From positions 434,001 to 498,000 of the forward strand of contig JBEWZL010000030.1 in assembly GCA_045837725.1 (NCBI GenBank): 64,000 bases of DNA, written 5' to 3'. Source of the DNA: Vermamoeba vermiformis (lineage: Eukaryota). The notes under the pieces are model-generated. The model had not been told where the DNA came from. It ran no database searches and saw nothing but the letters and a program-made list of their open reading frames with translations. Within the stretch, counting starts at the first letter, position 1, and each line of letters begins with the position of its first letter. Positions 5,156 through 18,786 of the stretch are shown here, one piece after another. A program made the position numbers and the translations under genes.

Positions 5156-8100
5156 ATGGCCACACCTGAAGCTAAGCCAACGGTTCCTACTGATTCTGGT
5201 GTTGGGGTAAGTATAGCATCTAGTTTGGCGGATAGCGATTAATATCAAAAAACAATTAATAATCGTATTCGCTATAATACCATTATAACAATATTATTTT
5301 TAATGTGGACGTATTAATTATTTAGCAGATTATTACTTTGGTAGTAACTCTGCATCGAATCAGAAATTTATTATTATTTTCAACTCAATACAATAACGTT
5401 TATTTCGCTTATTTTATGGATAAATGTGGCTAATACAACGGTGGCCGTTATTAATATTATTTTTATTTATTTTAGGCGCCCACTCCCATCCAATCCGAGG
5501 AGCAGATTCTTGATAGAATCAAAAAATGGCAACAATTAAACAGCAAACGATATGCCGAGAAAAGAAAGTTCGGCTATGTTGAACCTCAGAAAGAAGACAT
5601 GCCTCCAGAGCATCTGCGAAAAATTATCAAGGATCACGGTGACATGTCCAGCAAGAAATTCAGACGTGATAAGCGTGTATATTTGGGAGCTTTGAAATAT
5701 ATGCCTCACGCTATTATGAAACTCATGGAAAACATGCCAATGTAAGTATCATATCCGCGCCAATCTGATGCGTTAACCTCAAATCGTAAATTATTTGCAG
5801 GTCATCTAATATTATTTTTTCTTAGGCCTTGGGAAAATGTGCGTCACGTTAAGGTTCTTTACCACATTTCCGGCGCGATCACCTTTGTCAACGAAATCCC
5901 ACGCGTCGTCGAGCCTGTGTACACCGCTCAATGGGGTACCATGTGGGTCATGATGCGAAGAGAAAAGAGAGATCGTAAGCACTTTAAGCGAATGCGCTTC
6001 CCTCCTTTTGACGACGAAGAACCTCCACTTGACTTTGGTGACAACATTTTGGACGTCGAGCCTCTCGATCCGATCCGCATTGATTTGGACGAAGAAGAAG
6101 ACGCTCCCGTCCTCGAGTGGTTCTATGACCCCAAGCCACTCGTAGGCACTCCCTACGTCAATGGTTCCAGCTACAAGAAATGGCGATTGAACACTCCTAT
6201 CCTCGCCAACTTGTACCGTTTGGCCAACCAATTGATGAGCGATTTGGTCGACAAGAACTACTTCTACATGTTCGAAGAGAAGTCTTTCTTCACCGCAAAG
6301 GCCCTCAACAGCGCTATTCCTGGCGGCCCTAAATTCGAGCCTTTGTTCAGAGATTTGGAAGACAACGATGAAGATTGGAACGAGTTCAATGACATTAACA
6401 AGATCATCATTCGTCACCAAATCAGAACCGAGTACAAGGTCGCGTTCCCGTACCTCTACAACGACAGACCCAGAAAGGTCTACTTGGCCTATTATCACCA
6501 CCCACCCGTGTGCTACATTAAGGCCGACGACCCTGACTTGCCCGCGTTCTTCTTCGACCCCCTCATCAACCCCATCGTGTCAGTTAAGGGCAAGAAGAAA
6601 GCCAAGAAGGAAGAACCCGAAGAAGAGGAAGACGACTTTGAATTGCCCGAAGGAGTCAAGCCCTTGTTGAACCAAGACGACTTCGAAATGCCCAAGGGAT
6701 TCAAGCCTTTGCTTCGCGAGAGTGTTCCCGACCTCTACACCGAAAACACTGCCGACGGTATTGCTCTCTACTGGGCTCCTAAGCCTTTCAACCAACGCTC
6801 GGGACGTACTCGCCGTGTTCTCGACGTTCCCCTTGTCAAGACCTGGTACCAAGAGCGCTGCCCTGGAGACTACCCCGTCAAGGTCCGTGTCAGCTACCAA
6901 AAGCTGCTCAAGTGCTACGTCCTTAACAGACTGCACTTCCGACCTCCCAAGCCTAAGACCAAGAAGTCACTCTTCAAGGCTTTCAAGGCTACCAAGTTCT
7001 TCCAATCTACCGAAATCGATTGGGTTGAAGCAGGTTTGCAAGTTTGCCGTCAAGGCTACAACATGTTGAACTTGCTCATTCACCGCAAGAACTTGAATTA
7101 CTTGCATTTGGACTACAACTTCAACTTGAAGCCCATCAAGACTCTTACCACCAAAGAACGTAAGAAGTCTCGCTTCGGTAACGCATTCCACTTGTTGCGA
7201 GAAATCTTGAAGTTGACTAAGCTCGTCCTCGACGCTCACGTGCAATATCGATTGGGCAACGTTGAAGCCTTCCAACTTGCGGACGCTATTCACTACACCT
7301 TCACTCACGTTGGTCACTTGACGGGCATGTACCGTTACAAGTACCGTTTGATGCGTCAAATCAGAATGTGCAAGGATCTCAAGCACTTGATCTACTACAG
7401 ATTCAACACTGGTCCAGTCGGCAAAGGTCCTGGTGTTGGTTTCTGGGCTCCTTCTTGGAGAGTCTGGCTCTTCTTCATGCGCGGCATTGTTCCGCTCTTG
7501 GAGCGATGGTTGGGCAACTTGCTTGCTCGTCAATTCGAAGGTCGTAAGTCTAAGGGCATTGCCAAGACTGTCACCAAGCAACGTGTCGAAAGTCACTACG
7601 ATATCGAACTTCGTGCCGCCGTCCTTCGTGATATCCTGGATATGATGCCCGAAGGCATTCGTCAAAACAAGGCCAAGACCATTCTGCAACACTTGAGCGA
7701 GGCTTGGAGATGCTTCAAGGCCAACATTCCATGGAAAGTTCCTGGTTTGCCCGCTCCTGTCGAGAACATGATCTTGCGTTACGTCAAGGCCAAGGCTGAC
7801 TGGTGGACGTCTGCTGCTCACTACAACAGAGAACGTGTCCGCCGTGGTGCCACCGTCGACAAGACCGTCGTCAAGAAGAACTTGGGTCGTCTGACTCGTT
7901 TGTGGTTGAAGGCTGAACAAGAGCGCCAATTCAACTACTTGAAGGACGGTCCTTACATCTCGCCCGAAGAAGCCGTTGCTATCTACACCACTACCGTGCA
8001 TTGGTTGGAAAGCAGAAGATTCTCCCCGATCCCGTTCCCGCCACTCAGCTACAAGCACGACACTAAGCTCCTGATCTTGGCTCTCGAAAGATTGAAGGAA

Positions 8101-11100
8101 GCTTACGCCGTGAAGAGTCGCTTGAACCAACTTCAACGTGAAGAATTGTCGCTGATCGAACAAGCTTACGATAATCCTCACGAGACCCTCAGCAGAATCA
8201 AGCGTTTGTTGCTTACGCAAAGAACATTCAAAGAAGTTGGCATTGAATTTATGGACTTGTTCACTCACTTGATTCCTGTCTACGAAATCGAGCCTTTGGA
8301 GAAGATCACTGATGCTTACCTTGATCAATACCTCTGGTACGAAGGTGAGAAGCGCAGACTTTTCCCGAGCTGGATCAAGCCCGCCGACAGCGAGCCTCCA
8401 CCATTATTGGTCTACAAATGGTGTCAAGGCATTAATAACTTGACGGACGTCTGGGATACCTCCAACGGAGAGTGCGTGGTGCTCATGCAATCCAAGTTCG
8501 ACAAGTTGTACGACAAGATCGACTTGACTTTCTTGAACAGACTTCTGCGCTTGATTGTCGATCACAATCTTGCTGATTACATGACCGCCAAGAACAACAT
8601 CGTCATTGCCTACAAGGATATGATGCATACGAATCACTACGGTTTGATTCGCGGTCTTCAATTCGCTTCTTTCGTCGTGCAATATTATGCGCTGATTTTG
8701 GATATTTTGATGTTGGGTCTCTCACGTGCCTCTGACTTGGCTGGTCCTGCTAACAAGCCTAACGACTTCTTGACCTTCCCTGACGTTTCTACCGAAACCA
8801 AGTCGCCAATCAGACTCTACACCAGATACATCGACAGGTTCTGGATTTTGTTCCGCTTCACTCACGACGAAGCCAGAGATCTCATTCAACGTTACTTGAC
8901 CGAGAACCCCGATCCTAACAACGAAAACATGGTTGGTTACAACAACAAGAAATGCTGGCCTCGTGACGCTCGTATGCGCCTGATGAAGCACGATGTCAAC
9001 TTAGGCAGAGCCGTCTTCTGGAGCATCAAGAACAGTCTTCCTCCTTCATTGACAACTATTCAATGGGAAGACTCTTTCGTCTCCGTATACAGCAAGGATA
9101 ACCCGAACTTGTTGTTCGATATGGGCGGATTTGAAGTCCGAATCTTGCCAAAGATCCGTGCCTTCAACGAAGAATTCACTTTGAAGGAAGGTGCCTGGAA
9201 CTTGCAGAACGAGAGAACCAAGGAAAGAACCGCACAAGCCTTCTTGCGCGTTGGTGACGACTCCCTCCGCGTCTTCGAGAACCGTGTTCGTCAGATCTTG
9301 ATGGCTTCCGGTAGCACTACCTTCACCAAGATTGCTAACAAGTGGAACACTGCTTTGATTGGTCTTATGACCTACTACCGTGAAGCCTCTGTTCACACGC
9401 CCGAGTTGCTCGATCTTCTCGTCAAGTGCGAAACCAAGATTCAGACTCGTATCAAGATCGGTTTGAACTCTAAGATGCCTAGCCGTTTCCCTCCTGTGGT
9501 CTTCTACACTCCTAAGGAATTGGGTGGTCTTGGTATGCTTTCTATGGGTCACGTCTTGATCCCTCAATCCGATCTGAAGTACGCCAAGCTCACTGAGCGT
9601 GAGACTTCCCACTACCGCGCTGGTATGAGCCACGAAGAAGGTCAACTCATTCCCAACTTGTACCGCTACATTCAACCTTGGGAACAAGAGTTCCAAGACT
9701 CACTCCGTGTCTGGGCCGAGTACGCCATCAAGAGAGACGAAGCCATGAGCCAGAACAGACGTCTTACCTTGGAAGATTTGGAAGACTCGTGGGACAAGGG
9801 TATTCCTCGTATCAACACCTTGTTCCAGAAGGATCGTCACGTCTTGGCCTACGACAAGGGCTGGAGAGTTCGAACTGAATTCAAGGCTTACCAAGTCCTC
9901 AAGCAGAACCCCTTCTGGTGGACTCATCAACGTCACGACGGCAAGTTGTGGAACTTGAACAACTACCGTACCGATATGATTCAAGCTCTTGGTGGTGTCG
10001 AAGGTATTCTCGAACACACTCTCTTCAAGGGCACTGGTTTCCCTACTTGGGAAGGTCTCTTCTGGGAGAAGGCCTCTGGTTTCGAAGAGTCCATGAAGTA
10101 CAAGAAGCTGACCAACGCCCAACGTATGGGTCTCAATCAGATTCCCAACCGTCGTTTCACTCTGTGGTGGTCTCCTACCATCAACAGAGCCAACGTCTAC
10201 GTTGGTTTCCAAGTGCAGCTCGATCTTACTGGTATCTTCATGCACGGTAAAATCCCCACGTTGAAGATCTCGTTGATTCAGATCTTCCGTGCTCACTTGT
10301 GGCAGAAGATCCACGAAAGTGTTGTCATGGATCTTTGTCAAGTCTTCGATCAAGCTTTGGACTCGTTGGAAGTCGAAACCGTTCAGAAGGAAACTATTCA
10401 CCCTAGAAAGTCCTACAAGATGAACAGCTCTTGCGCCGATATCTTGCTCTTCGCTGCCTACAAGTGGCAAGTCTCGAAGCCTTCGCTCTTGACCGACACC
10501 AACGACTCGTTCGACTACGGAACTACAACCAAGTACTGGGTCGACGTTCAACTCAGATGGGGAGACTTTGATTCCCATGACATTGAACGTTACAGCAGAT
10601 CTCACTTCTTGGACTACACCACGGATAACGTCTCCATCTACCCTTCACCCACTGGTTGCTTGATTGGTATCGATCTTGCCTACAACGCTCACTCTGGCTA
10701 CGGTAACTGGTTCCCTGGTGCCAAGCCATTGATCTCTCAAGCTATGTCCAAGATCATGAAGGCCAACCCTGCTCTCTACGTCTTGCGAGAACGTATCAGA
10801 AAGGCCCTTCAATTGTACTCGTCCGAGCCTACTGAACCCTACTTGAACTCTCAGAACTACGGAGAGTTGTTCAGCAACCAGATCATTTGGTTCGTCGACG
10901 ACACCAACGTGTATCGTGTTACCATCCACAAGACCTTCGAAGGTAACTTGACCACGAAGCCCATCAACGGTGCCATCTTCATCTTCAACCCGAGAACTGG
11001 TCAATTGTTCTTGAAGATCATTCACACCTCCGTCTGGGCTGGTCAAAAGCGTTTGGGTCAATTGGCCAAGTGGAAGACTGCCGAAGAAGTTGCTGCACTC

Positions 11101-12579
11101 ATTCGCTCCTTGCCCGTTGAAGAACAGCCCAAGCAAATCATCGTCACCCGTAAGGGTATGTTGGATCCGCTCGAAGTCCACTTGCTCTCCTTCCCCAACA
11201 TCGTCATCAAGGGAAGTGACTTGCAATTGCCGTTCCAAGCCTGCTTGAAGATCGAGAAGCTCGGTGATTTGGTGCTTCGCGCCACTGAGCCTCAGATGGT
11301 CTTGTTCAACTTGTACGACGACTGGTTGCAATCCATCTCGTCTTACACTGCGTTCTCTCGTCTCATTTTGATCTTGAGAGCTCTGCACGTCAACACTGAC
11401 CGCGCGAAGGAAGTCTTGAGACCGCACAAGGACGTCATCACTGAACCTCACCACATCTGGCCCACTTTGTCCAACGACGAGTGGATCAAGGTCGAAGTCG
11501 CCTTGAAGAACTTGATCTTGGCTGATTATGGCAAGAAGAACAACGTCAATGTGACCTCATTGACTCAATCTGAAATCCGTGACATCATCTTGGGTGCTGA
11601 GATTGCTCCTCCTTCTGAGCAACGTAACGAGATTGCTGAAATTGAGAAGCAAGCCCGCGAAGCCTCTCAATTGACTGCCGTTACTACCAAGACGGTCAAC
11701 AAGCACGGAGATGAGATCGTTGTTACTACCACCAGCCCTCACGAGCAGAAGATCTTCTCATCCAAGACCGACTGGAGAGTTCGCGCCATTTCTTCGACTA
11801 CTCTTCACTTGCGTACTGGCCACATCTACGTCAACTCCGATGAGGTCAACGAAGAAGGCTACACCTACGTCATGCCTAAGAACATTCTCAAGAAGTTCAT
11901 CACGATTTCTGATCTTCGTACTCAAGTTGCCGGTTACATGTTCGGTGTTTCTCCTCCAGGCAACAATCAAGTGAAGGAAATCCGTTGCATTGTCATGCCA
12001 CCTCAATGGGGTACTCACTCCTTCGTTCAGTTGCCCAACAGCATCCCAGATCACGAGTTGTTGCGCGACCTCGAACCATTGGGCTGGTTGCACACTCAAC
12101 CCTCCGAGTTGCCTCAAATGGCTCCCTCTGACGTCATCACCCACGCCAAGTTACTCTCGGAGAATACCACCTGGGATCCCAAATCTATCTGCGTCACGGT
12201 CAGCTTGCCTGGTGCTTCTGCCTCGTTGACTGCTTACCGCTTGACTCCTGGTGGCTTTGAATGGGGTCGACAGAACGTCAACAGCGAGCGCGAACAGAAC
12301 TACCAAGGCTACAAACCTTCATTCTACGATCGTGCACCCTTGCTCTTGTCTGATCGTTTCTTGGGCTTCTTCATGGTTCCTGATGTCGGCAGCTGGAACT
12401 TCAACTTCATGAGCGTCAACCACAGCGTTAATATGAAGTATAACTTGACCTTGGGCATTCCTAAAGATTTCTACAATGAGAGTCACCGTCCTGCTCATTT
12501 CTTGAACTTCTCAGAGATGGAGAGCACTGCTACCACTGAGGGAGGCGATAATGTTGATCAAGAAGATTTGTTCTCCTAA
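5156..12579 (+). CDS. PRP8: Pre-mRNA splicing factor 8 (U5 snRNP); exons 5156-5206, 5476-5741, 5826-12579
   Basis: Hallmark sequences [39 protein letters not shown], RNase H-like [10 protein letters not shown] and a Jab1/MPN C-terminus. No intein seen. Confidence 0.99.
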
Positions 12580-13124: not shown

Positions 13125-15976
13125 ATGTTATCATCAGAGTACTACGCGCATAATGGTGCGTATAGAATACAATTACAGCAGGAAGATTGATACATCCGAA
13201 TTATAATTTAAATCTTATCAACTTGAAATTTTGTTCTAATAATCCATAATCCAATCAGTAATACGTTTACAATGATATCATAATATCAATAATTTAATTA
13301 TTACATCGGAATAATACTTACAGTTTTGATTTTAATTAATTTCGAATCAGATGGGTTTGGCGAACCTTTTGATAATGGAAATTTAATACACAATACGCTA
13401 CTCGCCGAAGGTGCAGATACACTTAATGGACACTATGCAGTGATGGACTCAGGAGGATCATACTCCGACTCGCCTGATGGTTCACCGACTGATAACGGAA
13501 CACCGCCTGGCGCAGGCCTTGCAGGGTAAGTGCCTAGTCAAACAATTTCATATACCACTATAATATGATATGGCGCGAGCCAGCACGCGTTTGTGAACTG
13601 CAAGTGCAATTGCGCCTGACTACCAAATCTGGTTCAAACTCCGATCAACTTGTGTTTCGTATTATGAACGCACTAAACTCATATTATCTTTATAGCTATG
13701 CCAGATCATCGTCTCGCTCTAATAGCGGTACTTTTGAAATGACCGTAATCTTGCTACATAAACCGCGAGGATCGAAAGGTGTTTGGGAGAAAGTTTTGGA
13801 TGGAGACGTTCTGCGAGTAACTAGGGTAAGAATTTATTTTGTGCCACTCGTATTATACAAAAATAGTTCAATATTTGCAAAGCCGAATGTTTTTTTTGGT
13901 TTTGGATTCAAATCTTACTCGCGGAATTTCTATCTTTGGTACGCTCAAAGCCGCTTTAATTATTGTCAGCGGTGAAAAATGCGCTACTAAACTGTTTACA
14001 ATTTACTTATTTGAGGTTTTTAACTAACGCACGTGCCTTTGTAGGAGAAAGGAAAACGACTCAAATTACAATGCAGAAGCGAATTTCCATTCGATTATAA
14101 CAACGTTAGCATCTATGTCGTAGATTTGGTTAATATGGAAGTCTGCAATGACGGCGTTACGGTAGAGGTAAGTATCAACCGGCTGAATCCAGTTTAAAAT
14201 TTTTAATTTGTGTCAACTCCTGACAATTTACTTTGAGCCATATAAGTGTTCAGTATCTTGTGCGATATTCGGGCAAATGATTCTGCATTTATTTGCAAAA
14301 CAATTTAAATTTTCCTTTTATGGTCAAGTTAAAAATAGGGATTTAACCTTCCTTTCATGAACAGAAAGTGACGGCTGATACTACTTCGCAACCCGAGTTC
14401 GTTATTGAAATGGAGATCAAGCTCTTCGTTGCTCGCAAGCGAATTCAACTCACTGTTCAAGCGCCCTTGCGCAACGAGGAAGGAGAAATTGCCGGTCGCA
14501 CGATCCAATTCAAAACTACCAGCAGTGGTGGTGCTATGAAGTAAGTGACCGATCAATACTAGTACCAAGTTCATAAGTCTAACGAACGCTGTAGGCCGAT
14601 GTCACCAGCTAATGACAGCGAGCACAACGGATCGGATCAAGATGCCTCACCGACCCATGTGCCTAACTACGGTAGAGAGATGCCTCCTCTTCCTCTGCCT
14701 CCTGCCAAGCGCAGACGTGTGGATTCACCGCCTTCTAAGACTGAGCCTGACCGCGAGCCTGGTTACACAAGCGCTCACATGAAAGAGGAGCACGCGATCT
14801 CAAACCAAGCACCTATCCCGCCTCAAATGGCCCATCAAGCACAGCCGCAACATTATTATAACGCTCAGTCAAATGCTATGGACATGAGCAGCACTAGCGT
14901 TGTTCCCACAATGCCGAATCCAGTTCCCAACCAACATGTCATGAACAGTTATAGTGCCCCTCCCCCTCAACCCGCTGTTAATCCTATGCACTATAGCATC
15001 GAAGCACAGCCCGTTACAGTTGTTCCTAACAGTTTGGACGTCCGCGGCGCCGTTCGAGCGAAAGCTTTCTACCAACTCAGTGACATCCGACTGAAGTTTG
15101 ACGTGGAAGAAATCGTCGATGCCTTGACTATTGTGTCTAACTTGGAAGGCAAGACATACAAGTGGAAGAACAACACACCCGAAAGCGAGGAGCACGGTGG
15201 CAAGCGCGTTATTGGTTTTATTGCGCAACAAGTACAAGAGGTCCTGCCTGAAGCTGTGCGCGAAGAAGAAGACGGCTATTTGGCCGTGAACTACGAGTCT
15301 ATGATTCCAGTGCTCGTAGAGGCCATGAAACAACACCTGCAAGAGTATCAGACAGACAAAATGGACTTCCAAGACCAACTGGATGATCTTCGCACCCAAT
15401 TGGATGAAGGCGCGAATAAGAGCGATGATATGCACAAATTTTTGAAGCACTTGCAGGAGCTGATGAAATCTAAGAAACTTACCTTCACATCTCCAAGACC
15501 GAAAGAATCGAAGAAGAGCAAGTTAAAGCGAATGTTATATAGCAAAAAGTTCCACATTGCAGGTGGTATTGTTGCCGGCCTATTCATTGCGGTCGGCTTG
15601 GCTTTGATTATCTTCAACAACGTCGTCAACTTGCCCGCGTTGAGTAAGTGTTACCCACGATAAATCTTTGTCCTATGCAGTACTAACGGTGTGAAACTTA
15701 GGCGGACAAACAGTTGCCAGTGCTATTCCTGTAGTTAACTTCCTTGGGGGTGCTTCAGCAAAGCCTCCAGCCGTAGGCAAACCTCCCACTGCCCCTTCAC
15801 CAACTACCCCGTCCAGCACGCCAACCACCACAGCCCCAGATGGATCTATCATCAGCGAACCAGCGTTAAATGATGTATATATTGCGTTGAATGTCGTTGG
15901 CAGTATTTTGCTGTGTCTTGGCATAGCGCTTGGTGTAACAGTAGTCGTTTTTTTCGTCAAAGCACGAAATCGTTAA
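13125..15976 (+). CDS. MYRF/MrfA-like membrane-tethered protein with Peptidase_S74 (intramolecular chaperone autoprocessing) domain, coiled coil and two TM helices
   Basis: AFYQL-SDIRLK (Ser codon 15079, Lys codon 15094), YKWK, IGFIAQQVQEVLPEAV, YLAVNYESMIPVLVEAMK. NLS-like PPAKRRR. TM segments FHIAGGIVAGLFIAVGLALIIF and VYIALNVVGSILLCLGIALGVTVVVFF. Seven exons reconstructed in frame. Confidence 0.8.
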
Positions 15977-16074
15977 TTATAGAATTGTACAAAGAATAAA
16001 ACCCTGTAATATAGCTTTTATTAACGAATATACAAGTCTTGTTGCGATTAGATGAAGGATACATCCATCCAATA

Positions 16075-18786
16075 TTAATCCAACTTAACATCTTTGTGGC
16101 GCCATAAATGCAGCAGATCTCGTAAGAAGGCTCGTTCAAATTTGTATCTAAAAGCATAAAGTGCATAAGTATCGTGCTATAATAAATATAACTAACGAAG
16201 ATACTGAAAGATACGTACACAGCGGCAATTGTGATCAAAAAACTCACTGCGCCGATGCCAATATGTGAGCTGCACTTGTAAAACGACGGAAATGGTTGAT
16301 TTTGATTACATAACTGTGACTCTGAGATGTACGTCACTATTGAAGCTAATGTAAACGTGATGAAAACACTCTTTGGTGGCACCAGATCCGCCAACAACGC
16401 GACTTTGTACTGCAATGAGAATAAGACATAATCGTCGGCAACATGTTTGAGTTTCCTATCTTTACCTTTGCAAAAAAATATTTGATGAATTCTACGCTGA
16501 ATATGATCCTCATGCCCATATCTGTTCAAATGGCGAATTAGTAAATTAAGAATTTAAACGTAATGAGGGAATAGCTCCAATTAAGGTAAGTCTCTATATG
16601 TTAGCGTATATTACGTACTAATGCAATTGGCGATGACTAAGCCGGAAGTTTCCATTACTTTGATCAAAAAGATGGCTGCACTGACGTAAACAATCGAAAA
16701 CAAGAGCATTAAGCGGTTAAATCGTTGGATCTGCTTTTTATCCGCCACAGAATGGGCAAACGCTTCGGTTATGCCTATAATAGTTATTTTGAGTTAATTT
16801 CTATAATTAGGTTCGAAAGATCTGTCAGATCTTCCCGAAGAGTTATTTTTACATTGCCGATAATTATGGCGCCTGTGATATTTTAGGTTACAATGATATA
16901 TATGTAGTTACCATTGACGCCCATGAACAGCACATATAAGCAGTACCACGATAGAACAGACGTGGCTGCCGAGTAACTGTAGTTACTTCCATAAAGCAGA
17001 TGTAGCAAGATGAACGAGTAATTAGGTCCAAATGCAACAAAATAGATACCTGTAGGTAAGTTTGTACAAGTTAGCGCCAATTCTTTTCAAAACTAATAGC
17101 GCAATGAGATCTATCAAGCGAAATCCTTACCGACATAGACAACCACTTTAAATAGTGTTCTGAATAATACTTGAGCCTTAAGTACGTCATTACGAGTCTC
17201 TTTTGCTTCTTCAGCTGTTTTAGAAGCAAGATCTGAGTATCGCGTACTGGATTGAATTCGAATCACATGTTTCTAATTATTACTTACCTTTTGTTTCAAC
17301 CGCATTAGTATTCGACAAAAGTTTTCCGAATACTTGATAGCAGACCTCTTCAATGGGTTGAAATAAAAATCGAGCCACGAGAGATCCTTTGCCAAAAGTG
17401 GTAAGTCTTGGATCTGGTTACAATTGTGAGCTTACCAAAGAAATTGACCACTCCAAATATGCCTTGGTTAACGAGACTAGTCACAGACTTTAATATGACC
17501 TTTTCGGCTTCTTGCAAGATCAACTTTTGAAACGATTGCCATAAGAAGCTGAGACTAAGGCCAACTAATTGAGGATCGAATATAGGACCTCTATTATTGC
17601 CAGATAACGTAGGCAATAACTGTTTAACTGAAGTAAGTTCTTTGTTCTTGCCTGACCAGATCTCGAGAACAAAGTGGCCGTAATACCCAACGATAAGCGT
17701 TAATGAGTATATTATCTGAGCGTATCCGAATGATATTAAGCTCATCTATATAAGGAAAGTAATTAGTCGCGCTTAAAATAAGTGAACTTTAGCGCCACAT
17801 CCAGACTCCAGTACAAAACTGCGTCTCCGAGCTGAAAAATATATTTCAATAAGACTAAAATACTTACGTTGAACGTATAGACTAGTACAAATGTAGTTAT
17901 GCACTTTAGAAAGACCGCAGAGGCCTCGACGCGTACTCGCACCGAGAACAGCATTGAGTTCTGCGCTAGAATATAACCTGGCTCACTAAGTACTTCTAAA
18001 AATGTAGCTATGCCTATAGTATGTCATTAAGACGTTAGCAGGGTTTGAAATCGAGATCTGGATCTTACAAGTTAAAACAACAGTTGCGAAGTAGTCTTCA
18101 GTGGCCTTTTCTTCTTGAGTGGCCATTAAAAAGAACATATAACAGACTATAGTCGATACTACAGCACCTAACGGCACGCTAAGCCATGCAACATTCAGTA
18201 CTTTTGAGATCTCGGATCTACGTGATAAAGTCAGTCTACCAGAGCTTACACCATTTTACGAGAATCATATGATACTAATAATAATATACATTAAGAGGTT
18301 TGATGGAGTTCTTACCGTTTAATGTTGCCTTGGTCTGAGGATCTGCCGCAAGCTTTCCTGAAAGCCTCTCGTGATAAAAACAAGATCATATTGAGCAATA
18401 GTTGTAATTGTACATTAGAGACCTATATAATAAATAAGAGTAACAATTTAGCATTAAAATAACGGGAATGAAAATCCAGATCTACTTACGCCGATGATTG
18501 ATTGCGGTAGTTTCTTGGTAATTAATATATTTAATCCAAATGTAAGACCTCTTGATATGAGTTGAAGGCCTATTAAAACGGCATACAGTTATGTAAGTGA
18601 CACGTCAACAAAAAATAAACAAAAAATTCCAATTTGCATAGAAATTGCATAATGTGGCTGATAATTATATAATATCGATTATACAACTATAATCTAAATT
18701 TAGAAAATAAATTGAAGCAACTTACCGACAAGTGCACGGATCCCGCTAACACCTTTCCCCACAATGTTGCTTTGCTCCGCACTCAT
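16075..18786 (-). CDS. RFT1: RFT1 (Man5GlcNAc2-PP-dolichol translocation protein), multi-exon
   Basis: LQLISRGLTFGLN, ILFLSREAFRKAC, QSFQKLILQEAEK, GSLVARFLFQPIEE, YCLYVLFMGVNGITEAFAH. Confidence 0.93.

What the first reader, a model, noticed from the sequence alone, without database searches (positions are those of the whole stretch)
13125..15976. Self-cleaving membrane-tethered factor with a non-Ndt80-looking N-terminal domain
Seen: the order is a ~140-aa beta-rich domain (FEMTVILLHKPRG..WEKVLDGDVLRVTREKGKRLKLQCRS..IEMEIKLFVARKRIQLTVQ..TIQFKTTSSG), NLS PPAKRRR, a Q/P/N-rich stretch, an S74 domain with intact S-D-x-R-x-K dyad, a coiled coil, then two TM helices around a P/T linker. Established: MYRF and Dictyostelium MrfA use this phage tailspike-related domain to trimerise, autocleave just before the Ser and release an Ndt80-type DNA-binding domain. 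Inference: here the released fragment seems shorter and I see no Ndt80 motifs. It may be a different DNA-binding family using the same release mechanism, with a two-TM anchor.
Basis: partly seen in the sequence, partly recalled or inferred. Interest (0 to 1): 0.72.

Follow-up and report, generated by a model that had tools for sequence, protein, structure and literature searches.

The report
Self-cutting amoeba factor, unnamed DNA-binding-like domain
This amoeba gene encodes a membrane-anchored protein that probably cuts itself free with the same phage-derived device as the human myelin regulator MYRF, but what it releases is a different, so far unnamed domain that looks like a DNA-binding module and is found across the amoebae.

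Summary
Observation confirmed. It is a 7-exon, 652-aa gene, and spliced contigs support all six introns. Order: unnamed ~130-aa domain, NLS, MYRF-type stalk, S74/ICA domain with intact S374/K379 dyad, coiled coil, two TM helices.

Best reading (about 60%): a self-cleaving, membrane-tethered transcription factor with a new Ig-fold DNA-binding family. Cleavage and DNA binding are inferred. The genome also holds about 93 LRR-receptor-like S74 genes with a third N-domain. No earlier scan note matched this sequence.

The parts
13125..15976 (+). Whole gene, 7 exons, 652 aa
   Evidence: Gene model; all six introns skipped in spliced contigs
13125..13732 (+). Exons 1-2 and start of exon 3: aa 1-81, acidic/Ser-Pro low-complexity N-terminus (possible activation region, inference)
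   Evidence: no Pfam hit for exon 2
13733..14535 (+). Unnamed ~130-aa basic beta-sandwich domain (aa 82-210, exons 3-5); motifs HKxRGxxGxW, RVTxxKGK, KL...K, FxTxxxG
   Evidence: Family profile scores the window protein at 68.7 bits over aa 84-209; 201 clusters; conservation table; Ig-like fold of a paralogue's domain
14698..14718 (+). NLS-like PPAKRRR (aa 247-253)
   Evidence: K[KR]x[KR] in 45 of 52 family linkers vs 1.9 expected after shuffling
14719..15018 (+). Q/P/N/M-rich low-complexity linker (aa 254-353)
   Evidence: sequence
15019..15078 (+). MYRF-type beta-helical stalk (aa 354-373) with conserved G363; stays on the released fragment
   Evidence: Aligns to the MYRF 7DC3 stalk; G at -11 in 49 of 50 members; role of MYRF G575 in PMC8326128
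15079..15339 (+). Peptidase S74 / ICA domain; S374 (15079-15081) and K379 (15094-15096) dyad; predicted cut between L373 and S374
   Evidence: PF13884 E 1e-16
15316..15474 (+). Coiled-coil-like helix following the ICA core (about aa 453-505)
   Evidence: sequence; only weak coiled-coil Pfam hits below cut-off; homologous position to the MYRF helix
15550..15627 (+). TM helix 1 (about aa 531-556), preceded by a basic cluster (N-terminus cytosolic, inference)
   Evidence: hydropathy
15702..15862 (+). P/T/S-rich loop, predicted luminal or extracellular
   Evidence: sequence; weak sialomucin hit below cut-off
15875..15961 (+). TM helix 2 (about aa 620-648), followed by a short basic tail
   Evidence: hydropathy

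Best explanation
A membrane-tethered transcription factor that works like MYRF/MrfA but carries a different DNA-binding domain. The precursor is inserted by a two-TM hairpin with its N-terminus in the cytosol (inferred). The coiled coil and ICA domain trimerise it, and the S374/K379 dyad cuts just before S374 (inferred from homology). A 373-aa fragment (Ig-fold domain, NLS, stalk) is released, probably as a stalk-held trimer, enters the nucleus and binds DNA through basic loops at one end of the sandwich (inferred). Shown: gene structure, expression as spliced RNA, domain order, intact catalytic motif, family conservation, predicted fold of a paralogue's domain. My odds per step: cleavage about 0.9, nuclear entry about 0.85, sequence-specific DNA binding about 0.75.
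Confidence: 0.62

Rival explanations
1. Cleavage and nuclear import happen, but the Ig domain is not a sequence-specific DNA binder. It binds a protein, RNA or small ligand (as a cofactor or sensor).
For: Top structural matches are non-transcription-factor Ig domains, AGS-C first; one of 72 members gave a weak AGS_C Pfam hit, E 0.11; no sequence link to known DNA-binding families.
Confidence: 0.2
2. The N-domain is an extremely diverged, minimal Ndt80/MYRF domain, so this is an aberrant MrfA paralogue.
For: Same overall layout as MYRF; MYRF's domain is also an s-type Ig fold.
Against: 0 of 72 members hit PF05224; profile comparison with an Ndt80 exon of this genome gave probability 0.3% (only a 65-aa single sequence); true Ndt80+S74 genes exist separately. 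The window's S74 is 42-50% identical to seven probably bacterial S74 proteins but about 30% (E 0.002) to this genome's MrfA-type S74 (the bacterial ones were selected as best hits and the MrfA piece may include intron).
Confidence: 0.07
3. The S74 region serves only as a trimerisation and folding scaffold, or the cut is real but the protein acts at the membrane and nothing functional goes to the nucleus.
For: No proline before the serine; some members carry C2, PH-like or other large C-terminal domains; a few carry what look by eye like decayed S74 remnants.
Against: Dyad intact in 53 of 53; NLS-like motif enriched about 24-fold on the N-terminal side; phage ICA domains also lack that proline and cleave.
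Confidence: 0.08
4. A virus- or phage-derived fibre or adhesin gene, or an assembly artefact.
For: S74 domains are typical of phage fibres (best solved-structure sequence hit is a tail fibre); the genome has one fibre-like S74 ORF (L006).
Against: Six spliceosomal introns confirmed in transcripts; flanked by PRP8 and an RFT1-family gene; full-length orthologue-like proteins in other organisms; N-domain would be cytosolic.
Confidence: 0.03

Closest known systems
Dictyostelium MrfA and animal MYRF/MYRFL (Ndt80 DBD + stalk + ICA/S74 + TM)
   Same: Stalk, S-D-x-R-x-K dyad, coiled coil and membrane anchor in the same order; NLS on the released side; presumed trimer-triggered self-cleavage.
   Different: No Ndt80 domain; ~130-aa domain against ~180 aa for MYRF; Leu/Phe/Tyr rather than Pro before the serine; usually two TMs and no large luminal domain; released fragment 373 aa.
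Runt / p53-like Ig-fold DNA-binding domains (RUNX1; also velvet VosA)
   Different: No sequence similarity; score not above generic Ig domains; DNA binding untested.
Phage tailspike / tail-fibre intramolecular chaperones (PF13884) and bacterial S74 proteins
   Same: Same catalytic module; 6F45 tail-fibre chain is the best solved-sequence hit (E 8.7e-6).
   Different: Here the chaperone is membrane-anchored in a spliced eukaryotic gene and the cargo is a small globular domain with an NLS.
Two-TM membrane-bound transcription factors (SREBP type)
   Same: Hairpin anchor with a cytosolic N-terminal factor (described in PMC3828593).
   Different: SREBP needs external proteases; here the cut is predicted to be autocatalytic and about 150 aa upstream of TM1.

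Membership tests
MYRF/MrfA family | Ndt80/PhoG DNA-binding domain (PF05224) | tested here: not met
   0 of 72 family members and none of the window's N-domain exons hit it; the same model finds 2 other loci in this genome
MYRF/MrfA family | ICA/S74 domain with Ser-Lys dyad | tested here: met
   PF13884 E 1e-16; S374/K379 align with 7DC3
MYRF/MrfA family | Beta-helical stalk with conserved Gly upstream of the cut | tested here: met
   By sequence only; MYRF G575
MYRF/MrfA family | Proline immediately before the catalytic serine | tested here: not met
   Leu373; family F 22, Y 19, L 5 of 50; conserved Pro in MRFs stated
MYRF/MrfA family | TM anchor downstream of the coiled coil | tested here: met
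   Two hydrophobic segments
MYRF/MrfA family | Autocleavage, trimer, nuclear entry | not testable with these tools
   Needs expression and mutants
p53-like / Runt-type Ig-fold DNA-binding superfamily | Ig-like beta-sandwich | tested here: met
   [not shown]
p53-like / Runt-type Ig-fold DNA-binding superfamily | Closer structural likeness to these transcription factors than to other Ig domains | tested here: inconclusive
   [not shown]
p53-like / Runt-type Ig-fold DNA-binding superfamily | Basic residues in A-B loop, E-F loop and C-terminal tail forming one DNA face | tested here: inconclusive
   Conserved basic motifs fall at these places by strand order; no coordinates were available to check the surface; the loop rule is recalled
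p53-like / Runt-type Ig-fold DNA-binding superfamily | Sequence-specific DNA binding | not testable with these tools
   Needs SELEX, DAP-seq or EMSA
CudA / STAT-like amoebozoan factors | CudA core domain similarity | not tested
   No CudA sequence or profile was in hand; the dictyostelid members PPL_11119 and DFA_03587 are absent from the three text supplements of the dictyostelid TF inventory, which covers the Cud family

The most novel reading that the evidence does not exclude
In Amoebozoa the stalk+ICA module is a general release cassette joined to at least three unrelated Ig-fold DNA-binding domains: Ndt80, this unnamed family, and a third, EBF1/p53-like domain. The third is fused through a TM helix to variable extracellular leucine-rich repeats in about 93 tandemly arrayed genes of this genome. 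That would be a one-protein receptor-to-transcription system with a large diversified repertoire, and the finding here is its ancient, low-copy sister class and a new pan-amoebozoan transcription-factor family missed by domain-based inventories.
Probability: 0.35. Interest if true: 0.87.

Novelty: new variant of a known kind. Interest (0 to 1): 0.66.

Why it matters
The self-cleaving, membrane-tethered transcription factors described in the papers I read (MYRF, MYRFL, MrfA) all use an Ndt80-type domain. A 2026 domain-combination screen lists only Ndt80-bearing amoebozoan cases (passages). If this protein cleaves and binds DNA, the phage-derived release device is modular and has been paired with other DNA-binding domains. 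It would also add a DNA-binding family that has no Pfam model, spans Amoebozoa and is missing from the dictyostelid transcription-factor inventory. The prediction is cheap to test: one Ser-to-Ala mutant and one DAP-seq run. The ~93 LRR-fused relatives would make it testable whether an extracellular ligand can gate ICA cleavage; in C. elegans a separate LRR-TM protein, PAN-1, partners MYRF (abstract).

Tried and rejected
Pfam scans of N-domain exons, paralogue domains and all 72 aligned members found no shared family. Sequence searches of the PDB with the domain and its profile gave nothing below E 1.5. The ESM Atlas gave only unnamed clusters under 0.9 and no structure search. Ndt80, MYRF, p53 and STAT domains were not among the 50 rows listed for the N-domain model; a family not listed is not excluded. 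Profile comparison of this N-domain with the LRR-class N-domain showed no similarity (probability 0.1%). A trimer prediction of the N-domain gave no answer. An S74 tree (29 rows, 82 columns) was unresolved, lost its MrfA rows to my cutting rule, and two LRR-class rows contained in-frame intron sequence, so it says nothing on separate origins (one search was a frame slip). No D. discoideum member was found: 4 hits among 19 candidates, a search of limited reach. Alignments with exon fragments as rows misaligned and were not used further. P0132 (cadherin repeats) was dropped as a false hit before the counts. No run was on record as RNA among the holders of the stretch. Literature searches found no description of this domain or of non-Ndt80 amoebozoan ICA proteins; the library lacks most subscription papers, and figure-based supplements could not be read. 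Earlier scan notes: none by sequence or place.

Full report
VERDICT. The gene encodes a MYRF-like self-cleaving membrane protein whose released domain is not Ndt80 but an unnamed, Amoebozoa-wide, basic Ig-fold domain. That it cleaves, enters the nucleus and binds DNA is inferred, not shown.

1. THE GENE. The window is eukaryotic. The gene lies between PRP8 and an RFT1-family gene. Seven exons with GT-AG introns give 652 aa. Run X1 has one 2092-nt contig spanning 13022-16006 that skips all six introns; X3 shows all six joints, X2 four; raw RNA reads of a ~90%-identical relative show four, with loose ends at the other two (4 runs laid of 24 listed). A full-length database protein, P0122, aligns over aa 79-512 at 40% identity and runs continuously across the exon junctions. 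Anatomy: low-complexity aa 1-81; domain aa 82-210; PPAKRRR at 247; Q/P/N linker; stalk 354-373; S74 from S374 (PF13884, E 1e-16); coiled coil; TM about 531-556; P/T loop; TM about 620-648. Basic clusters before TM1 and after TM2 suggest a hairpin with both ends cytosolic (inference).

2. THE CLEAVAGE MODULE. The region aligns with the MYRF ICA structure 7DC3 (E 0.0025) and a phage tail fibre (E 8.7e-6). MrfA S767/K772 and MYRF S578/K583 (mouse S587/K592) are essential for cleavage, and the stalk glycine is needed for the released trimer (passages of PMC3828593, PMC3742443, PMC8326128). Of 149 family proteins examined (150 listed, one cadherin false hit dropped), 53 have a stalk or G-x-x-A-Q motif; chosen without regard to the dyad, they keep S, D and K in 53 of 53 and R in 50. 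The stalk glycine is kept in 49 of 50. The proline that precedes the serine in MRFs is absent.

3. NOT MrfA. PF05224 finds two loci in this genome, on other contigs, each followed by an S74 motif. It finds none of the window's N-domain exons and 0 of 72 aligned family members. Profile comparison with one Ndt80 exon gave 0.3% (a weak test).

4. THE N-DOMAIN FAMILY. In this genome 8 places match: the window, a copy about 96% identical in DNA, five paralogues that each have S74 downstream, and one decayed copy. Two paralogues carry the domain in a single exon, and I used them as queries. A 7-sequence profile found 201 clusters at E<=0.001 and 109 at E<=1e-10 among 1.84 billion representatives; it scores the window protein at 68.7 bits. 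Of 30 representatives looked up, those with an organism name are Heterostelium, Acytostelium, Cavenderia, Planoprotostelium, Soliformovum, Flabellula, Rhizamoeba, Dracoamoeba, Stygamoeba, Luapelamoeba, Vermistella, Balamuthia and one locust annotation (probably an amoebal contaminant; my inference); the rest are unnamed. By my knowledge of the taxonomy these span Evosea, Tubulinea and Discosea, so the family is old and the window is most likely amoebozoan. Source names are 'hypothetical', transcript ids, or one generic label. C-termini vary: of 39 S74 members with at least 200 aa after the serine, 21 have two predicted TMs, 9 one and 9 none; some carry C2 domains or PF26147 (an alpha/beta-hydrolase-like family by my recall). 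21 members have at least 150 aa after the domain and no S74 motif; some may be truncated, but the three named dictyostelid ones come from annotated genomes and are soluble, Q/N/S-rich proteins. PPL_11119 and DFA_03587 do not occur in the three text supplements of the dictyostelid TF inventory PMC6873476.

7. WHAT IS KNOWN. It works like MYRF/MrfA (inferred) but fails membership on the Ndt80 domain and the pre-serine proline. Papers seen: passages of PMC3828593, PMC3742443, PMC8326128, PMC5473870, PMC2952845; passages and supplement searches of PMC6873476; abstract and passages of PMC13294678, which mentions amoebozoan S74 proteins only with Ndt80; abstract of PMC8099431. Nine searches (listings only) showed no description of this family; the library omits most subscription papers. 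One earlier scan note on another genome describes a membrane-tethered S74 fibre protein, a different cargo (unchecked).

8. SCORES. Novelty: new variant of a known kind (known release mechanism, unnamed cargo family). Best explanation 0.62. Interest 0.66. The bolder reading, a modular cassette including an LRR receptor-transcription factor repertoire, has probability 0.35 and interest 0.87.

Noticed in passing
[not shown]
   Followed up: partly
L021 (G000:C266) and L022/L009 (G000:C244:188362-189110): Two ordinary MrfA-type genes, Ndt80 domain followed by S74.
   Followed up: partly
L002/L023 (G000:C306:103689-108252): Second copy of the window gene, about 96% identical in DNA including introns: an allele assembled apart or a recent duplicate.
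   Followed up: partly
L003/L025 (G000:C75) and P0017, P0019, P0021-P0023: Paralogue class with the same N-domain and S74 but a large soluble C-terminal domain (precomputed PF26147) and no predicted TM in those tested: self-cleavage would split a putative transcription factor from a putative enzyme domain.
   Followed up: partly
L030 (G000:C124:649085 onward): Frameshifted, decayed partial copy of the C75 paralogue.
   Followed up: no
L006 (G000:C42:23070-26231): Intronless 891-codon frame resembling a viral fibre with a C-terminal S74 domain; possibly an integrated viral stretch. Observed only.
   Followed up: no
P0053, P0058, P0067, P0073: Dictyostelid soluble members carry a long Ser/Pro-rich insertion in the middle of the domain; no D. 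discoideum member was found.
   Followed up: partly
P0057, P0101, P0112; P0031, P0032, P0037: Some members have a C2 domain after TM1; others appear by eye to carry decayed S74 remnants without the dyad motif.
   Followed up: no
P0098 / P0206: A family member is annotated as a Schistocerca gregaria protein; probably an amoebal contaminant in that assembly (inference).
   Followed up: no
window 5746-12579 (+) and about 15957-18255 (-): Neighbours are PRP8, with a long intron-free frame, and an RFT1-family gene converging on this gene's 3' end.
   Followed up: partly
L016 (G000:C276), upstream of the LRR-class gene; L032 (G000:C220), upstream of a paralogue: A tRNA-like stretch and a small heat-shock-protein-like frame, both recognised by eye only.
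   Followed up: no
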